In this document: one piece after another, positions 41,560-43,113 of the stretch
Position numbering within the stretch: the first letter of the stretch is position 1
Layout: each line of letters starts with the position of its first letter
From: an uncultured Muribaculaceae bacterium
GTDB lineage: Bacteria > Bacillota_I > Bacilli_A > RF39 > UBA660
Direction of reading: 5' to 3'
Length of the DNA stretch: 64,000 bases
NCBI GenBank assembly: GCA_964384115.1
Contig: CAYLJU010000001.1
Location: forward strand, 6,469 to 70,468
The notes under the pieces: model-generated
Told to the model about the DNA's origin: nothing
The model's database searches: none
Seen by the model: only the letters and a program-made list of their open reading frames with translations
Position numbers and translations under genes: made by a program

Positions 41560-42294
41560 ATGGAAAAGTATAGTTTTTTTAATGATGTAAATGGCGATAG
41601 AGTGTATTATGCAGAAGATTTTGCAAGACATTTAGCCACATATTTTACTAATGGAATTTTTAATAATAGTTGCAAAGTAGAAGCAACAGGCGATGCTATG
41701 GCAGTCAATATGAATACTGGGTCTGCTAATATAAATGGGTATAGATATGATAGTGACTCTGTAAAAACATTACCAATTGATAATGCAGATGGTGTTTTAA
41801 ATCGTATTGATAATATTGTTATAAGATTAGATTTAACAAATAGAAATATTACTGCACAAGTAATAAAAGGGCAATTTGCAGATAATCCTGTTGCCCCTGA
41901 TTTAGTTAGAACATCAACAATATATGATTTAAGAATAGCAAAAATAAGTATTCCAGCAGGAACAACAGAAATAACACAAGATTTAATTACAGATACTAGA
42001 TTTATTACAAGTGATTGTGGAAATGTTATTTCAACAGTTGAAACACCTGACACAGAAGATTTATTTATCGAAATGCAGACACTTTTTGATAAAACATTAA
42101 CTGATATGCAACAAGATTTCTTAAATTGGTATGACCACATGAAAGGTCAATTAAGTGAAGATGCATCAGGTAATTTACAACTTCAAATTGATGAAATGAA
42201 ACCAAATGTCGATAATTTATTAGAAGATGTTGCAGAAATTCAAGAAAACATCTTAAATTTTGAATTATCAAGAGTTATAGAAAGTGAGGAATAA
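41560..42294 (+). CDS. tail fibre/baseplate protein (BppU-like N-terminus), receptor-binding region
   Basis: ...GDRVYYAEDFARHLATYFTNGIF... family seen in Firmicutes phage RBPs. Confidence 0.4.
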   Translation: MEKYSFFNDVNGDRVYYAEDFARHLATYFTNGIFNNSCKVEATGDAMAVNMNTGSANINGYRYDSDSVKTLPIDNADGVLNRIDNIVIRLDLTNRNITAQVIKGQFADNPVAPDLVRTSTIYDLRIAKISIPAGTTEITQDLITDTRFITSDCGNVISTVETPDTEDLFIEMQTLFDKTLTDMQQDFLNWYDHMKGQLSEDASGNLQLQIDEMKPNVDNLLEDVAEIQENILNFELSRVIESEE

Positions 42295-42297
42295 TAA

Positions 42298-43113
42298 ATG
42301 AATGTATATAAAGTTAAAAATGGTGATGGAATAGAAAGTAGTTCTATTATTCATGGTGAAGAAAAATTAAGTGATATTTTAGGAAATACAACAGCAGGTT
42401 TTCATAATTCGATTTATCGAGGTAAAGATATTACTGAAATGTTTTATGATGGAACATTGACAACAAGAGTTGCTAATAATGATTTTACTGATATTTTTAT
42501 AGGGGATTATATTATAGGAAAATCTAGTGGAAGAAAGTATTTAGTAGCAGATATTAATTATAGATTACATTGTGGTGATACAGAATGTACAAAACCACAT
42601 ATTCTTATGATACCTGAAAAGAGTATGGGAACTGCACAAATGAACACATCAAATGTTGTGACAGGTGCTTATCCATCTAGTGCTATGTATACAACTAATT
42701 TAGCATCATATAAAACAATAATAAATAATGATTTTGGTTCATCTCATATTTTAAGTCATAGAAATGTTTTTGCAAATTCAGTAAGTGGTGAATATGAAAA
42801 TAGTGGTGCTTGGTATGACTCAACAATTGAATTGATGAATGAAAATATGGTTTATGGAAGCAATATATTTCATAATGTTGCTAATGGTACAAATGTTCCT
42901 TATAGTTATGAAATTGATAAATCACAATTATCATTATTTAGATTAGATAAGAGTAAAATAATTGCTTTTAATGATAATGGTTCAAGACAGTGGTACTGGC
43001 TAAGAAATGTTGCAAATTCTTCCTGCTTCTGTTATGTCTACAGCGGTGGTAATAGTAGCTACAGTTGTGCATCCTACTCTGGTGGTGTTCGCCCCTGCTT
43101 TTTAATCTATTAA
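42298..43113 (+). CDS. DGR target protein (variable tail fibre/receptor-binding protein) with C-terminal variable region
   Basis: C-terminus ...NSSCFCYVYSGGNSSYSCASYSGGVRPCFLIY; last 84 nt are the VR matching TR except at adenines. Confidence 0.8.
   Translation: MNVYKVKNGDGIESSSIIHGEEKLSDILGNTTAGFHNSIYRGKDITEMFYDGTLTTRVANNDFTDIFIGDYIIGKSSGRKYLVADINYRLHCGDTECTKPHILMIPEKSMGTAQMNTSNVVTGAYPSSAMYTTNLASYKTIINNDFGSSHILSHRNVFANSVSGEYENSGAWYDSTIELMNENMVYGSNIFHNVANGTNVPYSYEIDKSQLSLFRLDKSKIIAFNDNGSRQWYWLRNVANSSCFCYVYSGGNSSYSCASYSGGVRPCFLIY
43019..43102 (+). repeat. DGR variable repeat (VR)
   Basis: 84 bp matching TR 43811-43894; 11 differences, all at TR adenines. Confidence 0.9.

What the first reader, a model, noticed from the sequence alone, without database searches (positions are those of the whole stretch)
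41560..43113. DGR target is the last gene of the tail module (receptor-binding position): candidate tropism-switching cassette
Gene order is TMP, Dit, Tal, BppU-like tail-fibre protein, then the target. The target starts 3 nt after the previous stop, so it is likely co-transcribed. Its C-terminus ends ...GGVRPCFLIY, reminiscent of the conserved end of C-type-lectin-fold DGR variable proteins. At 271 aa it is short compared with Mtd-type fibres. It may be a distal tip domain protein that docks on the 41560-42294 product.
Basis: inference. Interest (0 to 1): 0.5.

Follow-up and report, generated by a model that had tools for sequence, protein, structure and literature searches.

The report
Active DGR on phage tail-tip protein
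A prophage in a very AT-rich gut bacterium carries a working diversity-generating retroelement that rewrites eleven codons at the end of the last tail gene, which appears to be the detachable receptor-binding tip of a two-piece tail fibre; this is a well-documented example of a kind already known from gut phages.

Summary
ORF 42298-43113 (271 aa) is the last tail gene of a ~30-kb prophage (window ~16849-47017). It starts 3 nt after the stop of 41560-42294 and ends ...GGVRPCFLIY. Its 3' end is a DGR variable repeat (VR 43019-43097). Downstream lie an Avd-like gene, the template repeat (TR 43811-43889), a DGR-type RT, then the lysis genes.

The DGR is active in nature. Three other copies of the phage are 99.8-99.99% identical over 10-11 kb. 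Every difference inside the target gene falls in the VR on a TR adenine, and the TR is identical in all four.

One related locus and seven further protein clusters encode stalk and head as a single protein.

Verdict: new member of a known kind (DUF6273 DGR targets of gut phages). Interest is modest.

The parts
16849..47017 (+). Prophage (~30.2 kb) that carries the cassette. It is integrated inside a beta-lactamase-fold gene.
   Evidence: Contig L003 (30,080 bp) joins window 47017 back to 16849, which is the excised/circular form. Imperfect 16-nt att cores lie at 16849-16864 and 47002-47017. Other features: integrase 17031-17792, CI-like repressor 18278-18967, and the split Beta-lactamase ORFs 16122-16883 and 47007-47654.
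37135..39639 (+). Tape measure protein
   Evidence: phrog_58, E 1e-94
39639..40499 (+). Distal tail protein (Dit)
   Evidence: Pfam Sipho_tail E 1.3e-9 and SPP1_Dit E 5.2e-7; phrog_33 Dit
40499..41533 (+). Tal-position minor tail protein (Sipho_Gp37 family)
   Evidence: PF14594 E 4.5e-62; phrog_538 minor tail protein. The Tal assignment rests on position only.
41560..42294 (+). Headless receptor-binding-protein homologue: shoulder domain (aa ~1-160) plus helical stalk (aa 166-243). Proposed carrier of the DGR target.
42298..43113 (+). DGR target gene (271 aa). DUF6273 domain with the VR at its C-terminus. Proposed distal receptor-binding head.
43019..43097 (+). Variable repeat (VR) core. The variable codons are 246, 248, 249, 250, 252-257 and 260.
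   Evidence: 10 of 10 mismatches to the TR lie on TR adenines. 20 variable columns across four phage copies all lie on TR adenines. 14 natural protein variants differ in the VR region only at these codons.
43080..43102 (+). Invariant G+C-rich 3' end of the VR (IMH-like), with fixed differences from the TR at 43098 and 43103.
   Evidence: TGGTGGTGTTCGCCCCTG is identical in VR and TR. VR C43098 faces TR A43890, which would create a TGA stop at codon 267. That C is invariant in all four copies.
43101..43159 (+). Long hairpin/cruciform directly 3' of the VR. The apical G+C stem is 43123-43129 / 43135-43141, with loop CTTGT.
   Evidence: DNA MFE -17.5 kcal/mol, z -7.8, 0 of 200 shuffles as stable. 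A G+C hairpin with a 5-nt loop occupies the same position in nearly all DGR-bearing relatives, with different stem sequences. It is absent after the TR and absent in DGR-less relatives.
43181..43209 (+). Promoter-like site ahead of avd-TR-RT
   Evidence: TTGACT-17-TAGAAT, 10 of 12 matches. This is a consensus match only.
43232..43771 (+). Avd-like accessory gene (179 aa)
   Evidence: phrog_3206 'Avd protein of DGR', E 7e-5. A homologue lies between target and RT in 64 of 80 related loci. No Pfam, NCBIfam or PDB match.
43811..43889 (+). Template repeat (TR) core: 21 adenines, comprising 9 in-frame AAY codons plus AGT, TAC and GCA.
   Evidence: The TR is identical in all four copies of the phage.
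43890..44015 (+). TR-RT spacer (presumed part of the DGR RNA)
   Evidence: Assigned by position. Contains the purine-rich AAAGGAAA motif that relatives share as GGAAAGGAAAGG. No Rfam family matches.
44016..45155 (+). DGR reverse transcriptase (379 aa)
   Evidence: RVT_1 E 4.3e-22; phrog_1423 E 7.6e-78. Best solved relative is 8ub7_A, a 328-aa 'Reverse transcriptase', E 4e-17, with IGSQISQ aligned to its IGSLTSQ. YMDD is present.
45183..45205 (+). Terminator-like hairpin after the RT
   Evidence: 8-bp stem followed by a T-run
45985..46842 (+). Endolysin. It marks the end of the structural/DGR block.
   Evidence: CHAP + CW_7

Best explanation
A temperate siphophage of an uncultured, ~27% G+C gut Firmicute carries an active DGR. 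The RT (with the Avd-like protein) copies the TR RNA, misincorporates opposite adenines, and the cDNA replaces the VR at the 3' end of gene 42298-43113.

**Homing boundary.** Homing is bounded 3' by an invariant G+C-rich IMH-like stretch. It is presumably guided by the conserved hairpin just after the stop codon.

**Diversity.** Nine AAY codons plus AGT and TAC are randomised without creating stop codons. My calculation gives about 15^9 x 4 x 4 = 6e11 possible proteins.

**What the target is.** The target is a DUF6273 (C-lectin-like) ligand-binding head. The preceding gene encodes the rest of a receptor-binding protein: a baseplate-docking shoulder plus a helical stalk, with no head.

**Assembly.** The two gene products are proposed to assemble non-covalently, through stalk residues ~215-244 and target residues ~1-22. 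This puts a hypervariable tip at the distal end of the tail, so the phage population samples receptor specificities.

**Shown versus inferred.**
- Shown: DGR anatomy; adenine-specific natural diversification; the folds and families of both proteins; positional conservation; existence of single-chain fusions.
- Inferred: physical docking; oligomeric state; that the ligand is the host-cell receptor; that variation changes host range.
For: **DGR anatomy and activity**
- VR/TR: 10 of 10 mismatches on TR adenines.
- Three other copies of the phage (L003-L005) differ from the window by 17, 13 and 1 nt over 10-11 kb. 17, 11 and 1 of those differences lie in the VR. All 20 variable core columns are TR adenines and the TR is invariant.
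- 14 protein variants in the 90% cluster vary at codons 246-260, with up to 11 residues per site.
- In 63 related loci, 804 of 823 VR-TR mismatches lie on adenines.
- The RT is closest to 8ub7_A and carries the IGxxxSQ motif.
- The post-VR hairpin scores z -7.8 and is conserved across relatives with different stem sequences.

**Tail-tip role**
- The target is the last gene before the lysis genes.
- The order Dit-Tal-stalk-target-Avd-RT recurs in 33 loci.
- In the library of 1.84e9 representatives the domain is C-terminal behind Phage_tail_fib, Collagen, BppU_N, DUF859 and fibre-repeat N-termini.
- JCL1032 ORF23, annotated as a structural or tail fibre protein, carries the domain at aa 238-473 (39% identity) without a DGR.

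**Split-RBP model**
- The stalk protein's fold matches RBP shoulders.
- Its homologues carry heads in cis: Gp10_C, Gp53-like_C, and the 343-aa lactococcal RBP.
- The close DGR-less relative L091 has a 358-aa version of the stalk protein and no DUF6273 gene.
- L040 encodes one 466-aa protein equal to stalk aa 2-214 plus target aa 23-270.
- Seven more fusions occur among 150 representatives.
- The stalk C-terminus and target N-terminus co-vary between lineages.
Against: - There are no virion proteomics, adsorption or host-range data for this phage or any close relative.
- The AF2 model has pLDDT < 50 across the VR (residues 238-259) and 190-207, so surface exposure of VR residues is untested.
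- Avd assignment rests on a single weak PHROG hit plus conserved position.
- Docking between the two proteins is inferred from fusions and co-variation. It was not modelled, because no complex prediction was available.
- The Gp71/ORF474 adsorption literature turned out to concern a different JCL1032 protein, so it gives no experimental support.
Confidence: 0.7

Rival explanations
1. The DGR target is a virion-borne accessory adhesin rather than the primary host-receptor binder. It would bind variable non-host or secondary ligands such as mucus glycans, immunoglobulin or other environmental polymers, or mediate reversible first contact. Irreversible receptor binding would be done by the Tal-position protein or another tail component.
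For: - The closest solved structure is the DUF6273 N-terminal domain of a gut-bacterial IgA protease (PMC12402451). This shows the fold is also used outside phage-bacterium recognition.
- The literature on DUF6273/C-lec DGR targets (tentaclins, PMC10743442) openly considers binding to intestinal or immune-cell ligands.
- JCL1032 carries both a Gp71-like antireceptor homologue (ORF20) and a separate DUF6273-bearing fibre (ORF23). The domain can therefore coexist with another adsorption protein.
Against: - In the window no other head-bearing RBP candidate lies between Tal and the lysis genes. The only RBP homologue is headless.
- In fusions the DUF6273 domain occupies exactly the position of the RBP head.
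- DGR-less close relatives have a cis head on the same stalk instead.
Confidence: 0.2
2. The target is a tail-tip protein, but it attaches somewhere other than the 41560-42294 stalk (for example to Dit or the Tal-position protein). The 244-aa protein would be a complete short fibre in its own right, and the adjacency of the two genes would be only operon organisation.
For: - No complex model or interaction data exist.
- The target N-terminus is modelled at low confidence (pLDDT ~53).
- The same DUF6273 domain is found behind unrelated anchors, including Phage_tail_fib, BppU_N and collagen, so it has no obligatory partner.
Against: - Single-chain stalk-head fusions occur in eight independent sequences.
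- The fusion in L040 removes precisely the stalk C-terminal ~30 aa and the target N-terminal ~22 aa.
- These two segments are replaced together between the 271-aa and 285-aa lineages, while the cores stay related.
Confidence: 0.08
3. The cassette is a decayed or inactive DGR, and the VR/TR differences are old.
For: One copy (L003) has an A6 to A5 change in the RT that shortens it to 358 aa.
Against: - Near-identical phage copies (99.84-99.99% over 10-11 kb) differ almost exclusively in the VR at TR-adenine positions.
- L005 differs from the window by a single nucleotide in 10,114, and that nucleotide is a VR site opposite a TR adenine.
- The TR, RT motifs and hairpin are intact.
Confidence: 0.02

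Closest known systems
Bordetella phage BPP-1 DGR (Mtd, Avd, TR, bRT)
   Same: - Adenine-specific TR-to-VR mutagenic homing into the 3' end of a tail-distal receptor-binding gene.
- AAY-rich TR.
- G+C-rich IMH-like VR end followed by a hairpin.
- Gene order target, avd, TR, RT.
- The RT's best solved relative is 8ub7_A. From memory this is the BPP-1 RT; that was not checked with a tool.
   Different: - It lacks Mtd's beta-prism and beta-sandwich anchoring domains. Anchoring is proposed to come from a separate shoulder-stalk protein.
- The host is a Gram-positive-type gut Firmicute and the phage is a siphophage.
- The hairpin loop is 5 nt.
DUF6273-only DGR targets of gut phages: nd4/nd12 'tgt2' (PMC10743442) and Faecalibacterium prophages Lelie, CP11, Roos, Pioen (PMC11792537)
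   Same: - Short proteins (234-294 aa for the nd4/nd12 'tgt2' proteins) consisting of a DUF6273 domain with the VR at its C-terminal end.
- nd12 also has a homologue of the window's stalk protein after its Tal-position gene (44% identity over aa 1-176).
- Both papers propose a receptor-binding role.
   Different: - Those phages often have a second target (a tentaclin). The window has a single VR.
- The papers left the attachment of the small target to the virion open. Here fusions and synteny point to the RBP stalk.
Acutalibacter phage Fontainebleau (ON453893), a cultured-host phage
   Same: - Same order: TMP, Dit, Tal-position, stalk homologue (annotated 'head protein'), target homologue (40% identity), Avd-like, RT.
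- VR/TR pair with 16 of 20 mismatches on adenines.
   Different: - Stalk 325 aa and target 311-331 aa, with unrelated junction segments.
- The GenBank record does not annotate the DGR or a tail role for either protein.
Lactococcal siphophage RBPs (phage 1358 ORF20, 4L92; p2 ORF18, 2WZP; P335 phages r1t/LC3/63301)
   Different: Those RBPs carry their own head domain on the same chain and are not DGR targets. The window protein stops after the stalk.
Two-component baseplate arrangement of TP901-1/Tuc2009 (BppU carrying the separately encoded RBP BppL). From general knowledge; not tested here.
   Same: It is a precedent for a receptor-binding subunit that docks through its N-terminus on a separately encoded carrier protein.
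   Different: The carrier here is not BppU: there is no PF10651 hit and the fold is an RBP shoulder. BppU_N does occur fused in cis to this head domain in 4 other representatives.
Lactobacillus phage JCL1032 ORF23 (474 aa, annotated structural / tail fibre protein)
   Same: Its C-terminal residues 238-473 are 39% identical to target residues 33-270, including the WxWLR...GVRPxF framework. It is the last large tail gene before the holin genes.
   Different: - No RT or TR, so the sequence is fixed.
- A different N-terminal anchor, shared with many Lactobacillus tail fibres.
- It is not the ORF474 of the Gp71 adsorption study.

Membership tests
Diversity-generating retroelement (DGR) | TR/VR pair whose differences are confined to adenines of the TR | tested here: met
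   10 of 10 mismatches in the window. 20 of 20 variable columns across four copies. 804 of 823 mismatches in 63 related loci.
Diversity-generating retroelement (DGR) | DGR-clade reverse transcriptase adjacent to the TR (IGxxxSQ motif, YxDD) | tested here: met
   RVT_1 and phrog_1423 hits. IGSQISQ and YMDD are present in the sequence. Best PDB relative is 8ub7_A, E 4e-17. NCBIfam retron, group II and Drt models all score below their cut-offs.
Diversity-generating retroelement (DGR) | VR at the 3' end of an ORF, with an invariant G+C-rich IMH-like end that differs from the TR end | tested here: met
   The VR ends 11 nt before the stop codon. GGTGGTGTTCGCCCCTG is invariant. Positions 43098 and 43103 differ from the TR in all four copies.
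Diversity-generating retroelement (DGR) | Hairpin/cruciform 3' of the VR but not of the TR | tested here: met
   z -7.8. Present in nearly all DGR-bearing relatives with different stem sequences. Absent after the TR and in DGR-less relatives. Its function was not tested.
Diversity-generating retroelement (DGR) | Accessory variability determinant (Avd) | tested here: inconclusive
   Only phrog_3206, E 7e-5, over aa 89-178. No Pfam, NCBIfam or PDB hit. A homologue is conserved between target and TR in 64 of 80 loci.
Diversity-generating retroelement (DGR) | Ongoing diversification | tested here: met
   Near-identical phages differ almost only at VR adenine sites.
Pfam DUF6273 (PF19789) | Score above the gathering threshold | tested here: met
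   [not shown]
C-type-lectin-fold DGR variable proteins (Mtd / TvpA type) | C-lectin/FGE-like fold detectable against solved members | tested here: inconclusive
   [not shown]
C-type-lectin-fold DGR variable proteins (Mtd / TvpA type) | VR residues clustered on one solvent-exposed face | not testable with these tools
Tolerance of up to 11 residue types per site argues for exposure only indirectly.
Siphophage receptor-binding protein (shoulder-neck-head) | N-terminal shoulder domain fold | tested here: met
   [not shown]
Siphophage receptor-binding protein (shoulder-neck-head) | C-terminal head domain on the same chain | tested here: not met
   The protein ends after helices 166-243. The head is proposed to be supplied in trans by the target. 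It is present in cis in L040 and seven other sequences.
BppU (PF10651 BppU_N) | BppU N-terminal domain in the 41560-42294 product | tested here: not met
   [not shown]

The most novel reading that the evidence does not exclude
The window shows a split, two-subunit receptor-binding protein. A conserved, headless shoulder-stalk subunit stays constant for baseplate assembly. A separately encoded DUF6273 head docks on it through short, co-varying junction peptides and is the only part rewritten by the DGR.

The same head family exists in three states across gut Firmicute phages:
- fused in cis;
- split without a DGR;
- split with a DGR.

This suggests an evolutionary route in which splitting the head from the stalk goes along with retroelement-driven hypervariation.
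Probability: 0.5. Interest if true: 0.45.

Novelty: new member of a known kind. Interest (0 to 1): 0.32.

Why it matters
DGR-diversified tail proteins are thought to let gut phages track changing host surfaces. For the abundant DUF6273-type targets, however, it has been unclear where the small target protein sits on the virion.

This locus and its relatives give a concrete, testable answer: the target replaces the head of a lactococcal-type RBP and rides on a headless stalk. They also give an unusually clean natural record of DGR activity, because the differences between near-identical phage copies are concentrated almost entirely at VR adenine sites.

The cultured-host relative Acutalibacter phage Fontainebleau makes the model experimentally accessible. 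The modular stalk/head junction could also be useful for engineering host range. None of this changes the general picture of DGRs.

Tried and rejected
1. **Experimental link through LL-H Gp71 / JCL1032 'ORF474' (Ravin 2002): rejected.** JCL1032 has two 474-aa ORFs. Gp71 matches ORF20 (63% identity). It does not match ORF23, which is the target homologue, and it does not match the target family (hhalign probability 0.2%). The paper itself is not held.
2. **BppU-like identity of the upstream protein: rejected**.
4. **Homology between the JCL1032 ORF23 N-terminus and the window's stalk protein:** none.
5. **Near-identical DNA in the GenBank phage collection:** none.
6. **VR/TR pattern in IMG/VR viral contigs:** no match.
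7. **Second (remote) VR in the window:** none.
8. **Rfam families anywhere in the window:** none.
9. **Host identification from housekeeping proteins.** Only the closest related loci give a hint: uncultured Bacilli and Clostridia MAGs.
10. **Avd confirmation** by Pfam, NCBIfam or PDB sequence search: nothing.
11. **Literature search for the Fontainebleau phage:** returned only irrelevant papers.
12. **Similarity of other downstream partners to the DUF6273 family.** The 373-aa and 347-aa proteins that follow stalk homologues in L093 and L089 show no detectable similarity.
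Full report
**1. What is at the coordinates**

The window is very AT-rich (22-28% G+C). ORFs 41560-42294 (244 aa) and 42298-43113 (271 aa) lie on the + strand. They are separated by the stop TAA, a second TAA, and then ATG, with a GAGGA ribosome-binding site. The 271-aa product ends ...SYSGGVRPCFLIY.

Upstream genes:
- a tape-measure protein (37135-39639; phrog_58, E 1e-94);
- Dit (39639-40499; Sipho_tail and SPP1_Dit);
- a Tal-position protein of the Sipho_Gp37 family (40499-41533; E 4.5e-62).

Downstream genes:
- an Avd-like ORF (43232-43771; phrog_3206, E 7e-5);
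- a reverse transcriptase (44016-45155; RVT_1 E 4.3e-22; phrog_1423 E 7.6e-78);
- two small membrane/holin-like ORFs;
- a CHAP+CW_7 endolysin (45985-46842).

The factual part of the finding is therefore correct, and the target is the last gene of the tail module.

**2. The element is a prophage**

An integrase (17031-17792) and a CI-like repressor (18278-18967) lie at the left end. The two halves of a beta-lactamase-fold gene flank the element (16122-16883 and 47007-47654). A 30,080-bp metagenomic contig (L003) joins window 47017 directly to 16849. This is the excised or circular form. The att cores are imperfect 16-mers, AATTCTC-N5-GATA.

**3. DGR anatomy**

*Repeat pair.* A direct repeat pairs 43019-43107 with 43811-43899. 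In the 79-nt core the ten mismatches all have A in the downstream copy (the TR) and a non-A base in the ORF copy (the VR). With 21 A among 79 positions, P = 2.4e-7.

*Codon design.* In the target's reading frame the TR reads nine AAY codons (246, 248, 249, 250, 252, 254, 256, 257, 260) plus AGT (253), TAC (255) and GCA (258). This is the classic design that gives many amino acids and no stop codons. By my calculation it allows about 6e11 proteins.

*3' boundary.* The repeats share an invariant G+C-rich end, TGGTGGTGTTCGCCCCTG. Immediately after it the TR has A where the VR has C. If copied, that A would turn Cys267 into a TGA stop. The C is present in all VR copies examined, which marks the 3' boundary of homing.

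*Hairpin.* Directly after the VR, spanning the stop codon, lies a long inverted repeat with a G+C-rich apical stem and a 5-nt loop (43101-43159). As DNA it folds at -17.5 kcal/mol, z = -7.8.
- An equivalent G+C hairpin with a 5-nt loop sits at the same distance from the VR in nearly all DGR-bearing relatives. The stem sequences differ (for example CACCCC/GGGGTG, ACAGGGC/GCCCTGT, GCTAGGG/CCCTAGC, CCGCCCC/GGGCGG).
- It is absent after the TR and absent in relatives without a DGR.
- This matches the hairpin/cruciform target-recognition element described for BPP-1. That comparison rests on established knowledge and was not tested here.

*RT.* The RT carries IGSQISQ and YMDD. Its best solved relative is a 328-aa RT, 8ub7_A (E 4e-17).

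*Single target.* Only one VR and one TR exist in the window.

**4. The DGR is active in nature**

The protein upstream of the target is encoded identically on other contigs. Three of them (L003, L004, L005) carry the same phage.
- Against the window they show 17 mismatches in 11,458 nt, 13 in 10,410, and 1 in 10,114.
- Within the target gene the first 721 nt are identical in all four copies. The 17, 11 and 1 differences all lie in the VR. All 20 variable core columns are TR adenines. The TR is identical in all four.
- Fourteen full-length members of the target's 90%-identity cluster vary at codons 246, 248-250, 252-257 and 260. Single sites show up to 11 different residues. Apart from that there are only a few lineage substitutions.
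- In 63 related genomic loci with a detectable TR, 804 of 823 VR-TR mismatches fall on TR adenines.
- Many homologue clusters have hundreds to thousands of member sequences at 90% identity, as expected for hypervariable proteins.

**5. What the target is**

*Family.* Pfam places residues 208-270 in DUF6273 (30.4 bits).

*Model.* An AF2 model built on 141 homologues has pTM 0.76 and mean pLDDT 72.7. Confidence is below 50 for residues 190-207, 238-248 and 251-259, which include the VR.

- Mtd is not among the listed matches.

The tentaclin paper (PMC10743442) reports that DUF6273 domains of gut-phage DGR targets resemble C-type lectin domains. It reports that the VR forms a surface beta-hairpin like that of 4EPS. 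It also describes short DUF6273-only 'tgt2' targets with the VR at the 3' end, which is the same class as this protein. The Faecalibacterium prophage study (PMC11792537) likewise maps VRs to the C-terminus of DUF6273.

The requested test of VR surface clustering could not be done.

*Distribution.* A profile search of 1.84e9 cluster representatives finds 3999 relatives (1588 at E <= 1e-30).
- In the matches listed the domain lies at or within a few residues of the C-terminus in nearly all, behind N-terminal regions of 0 to ~790 aa.
- Among 95 long members the recognisable N-termini are Phage_tail_fib (8), Collagen (5), BppU_N (4), DUF859, phage fibre repeats and PTR. All of these are tail-fibre or baseplate anchors.
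- Predicted viral structures that match are DUF6273 proteins, plus one 461-aa 'Receptor Binding Protein'.

**6. What the upstream protein is**

It has no Pfam hit, BppU_N included. PHROGs place its first ~230 residues in families labelled 'head protein' or 'virion structural protein' whose profiles are much longer.

- archaeal and cyanophage tail fibres.

This is the RBP 'shoulder' fold. By sequence it is 31% identical over aa 1-213 to the 343-aa protein annotated as receptor binding protein that follows Tal in Lactococcus P335 phages such as 63301, r1t and LC3. One close homologue is named 'Receptor Binding Protein' in nr. Longer homologues carry C-terminal heads such as Gp10_C or Gp53-like_C. 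The window protein is thus an RBP shoulder plus stalk that lacks a head.

**7. Linking the two proteins**

*Synteny.* Across 80 loci from species-representative genomes, mostly uncultured gut and rumen Clostridia MAGs:
- a stalk homologue sits directly upstream of the target in 33;
- Avd and RT sit directly downstream in 64 and 63.

- L027 keeps the split stalk + DUF6273 pair followed by lysis genes, with no Avd, RT, TR or hairpin.
- L091/L092 are close relatives (Dit 73%, Tal 69%, stalk 63% identical). They have a 358-aa stalk protein with its own C-terminal extension, no DUF6273 gene and no DGR.
- L040 encodes a single 466-aa protein. Its residues 3-215 match stalk residues 2-214 (57%, E 4e-86). 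Its residues 219-465 match target residues 23-270 (59%, E 1e-100). It lies after Dit and Tal homologues, with no TR within the ~890 nt downstream.

*Fusions are recurrent.* Seven of the 150 best cluster representatives (454-509 aa) also combine a stalk-like N-terminus with the DUF6273 C-terminus. This argues against an assembly artefact.

*Co-variation.* The segments lost in the fusion are stalk ~215-244 and target ~1-22. These are the segments that are conserved together in the 271/273-aa lineage and replaced together in the 285-aa lineage.

I read this as Rosetta-stone evidence that the target is the head of this RBP, supplied in trans. Physical docking, stoichiometry and the nature of the ligand remain inferred.

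**8. A lead that failed**

It shares 39% identity with the target over its C-terminal half and has no DGR.

I suspected it was the 'ORF474' of the Gp71 adsorption study. It is not. JCL1032 has two 474-aa ORFs, and LL-H Gp71 matches ORF20 (63% identity), not ORF23. No experimental adsorption evidence therefore transfers to this domain.

**9. Comparison and verdict**

Mechanistically this is a canonical DGR of the BPP-1 type, acting on a tail-distal ligand-binding protein. Its target belongs to the DUF6273 class already described as DGR targets in gut phages.

What this analysis adds:
- a clean natural record of activity;
- correction of the upstream protein's identity, from BppU-like to a headless RBP shoulder-stalk;
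- comparative evidence that the small DUF6273 target is the trans-encoded head of that RBP.

A cultured-host relative with the same cassette exists: Acutalibacter phage Fontainebleau, with 16 of 20 VR-TR mismatches on adenines.

This is a new member of a known kind. It is interesting mainly as a tidy model for where DUF6273 targets sit on the virion. Interest 0.32.

Noticed in passing
L093:6884-7923 (same in L094); found through P0327, a 306-aa homologue of the window 41560-42294 product: A different DGR lies next to a stalk homologue. The 3' end of a 373-aa gene (the VR) is repeated four times in tandem (period ~158 nt) in the ~1-kb non-coding gap before the RT. One copy (7445) is nearly identical to the VR, with A-to-T type differences. 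The other three copies differ from each other at many positions, including non-A positions. It looks like an array of divergent TR-like cassettes. No Avd gene was called, and the 373-aa protein shows no similarity to DUF6273.
   Followed up: partly
window 16122-16883 and 47007-47654 (- strand); att cores 16849-16864 and 47002-47017: The prophage is inserted inside a beta-lactamase-fold (serine hydrolase/PBP-like) gene and splits it into N- and C-terminal ORFs. The att core is an imperfect 16-mer, AATTCTC-N5-GATA. Contig L003 shows the circular or excised junction. L004 shows the same phage next to a different flank, an AA_kinase gene.
   Followed up: partly
window 43888-43890 (TR) versus 43096-43098 (VR): In the target's frame the TR reads TGA where the VR reads TGC (Cys267). 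If that adenine were ever copied unchanged, the target would lose its last five residues. All four VR copies keep C, so the position lies just outside the homing tract.
   Followed up: yes
window 45066-45071 (RT gene); L003:9512: In copy L003 an A6 run in the RT gene is A5, which shifts the frame and shortens the RT from 379 to 358 aa. This could be a real inactivating slip or an assembly error. L003 is also the copy with the most diverged VR.
   Followed up: no
L002 (JCL1032, NC_019456): 5391-6815 (ORF20) and 7290-8714 (ORF23): JCL1032 has two different ORFs of exactly 474 aa in its tail module. The Gp71-like one of the adsorption literature is ORF20. The RefSeq note 'possibly associated in host specificity' sits on ORF23, which is the DUF6273-type fibre. 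This is easy to confuse.
   Followed up: yes
window 43940-43960, and downstream of the TR in most related loci (for example L012:8461-8535): A purine-rich motif (GGGAAAGGAAAGGAAAG in relatives, AAAGGAAA in the window), preceded by a small hairpin, recurs 40-60 nt 3' of the TR across divergent loci. It is probably part of the DGR RNA spacer used for priming. No Rfam family covers it.
   Followed up: no
/ 9qa6_A: The closest solved structure to a phage DGR target is the N-terminal DUF6273 domain of a gut-bacterial IgA protease (Thomasclavelia ramosa). This domain family is therefore shared between phage tail tips and a secreted bacterial enzyme that acts on host antibody.
   Followed up: partly
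window 42298-43113 cluster variants (P0001, P0361-P0374): Tyr is recurrent at VR codon 260 (9 of 14 variants), and only Tyr or Cys occurs at codon 255, although the codons allow more residues. This hints at selection on part of the variable surface.
   Followed up: no
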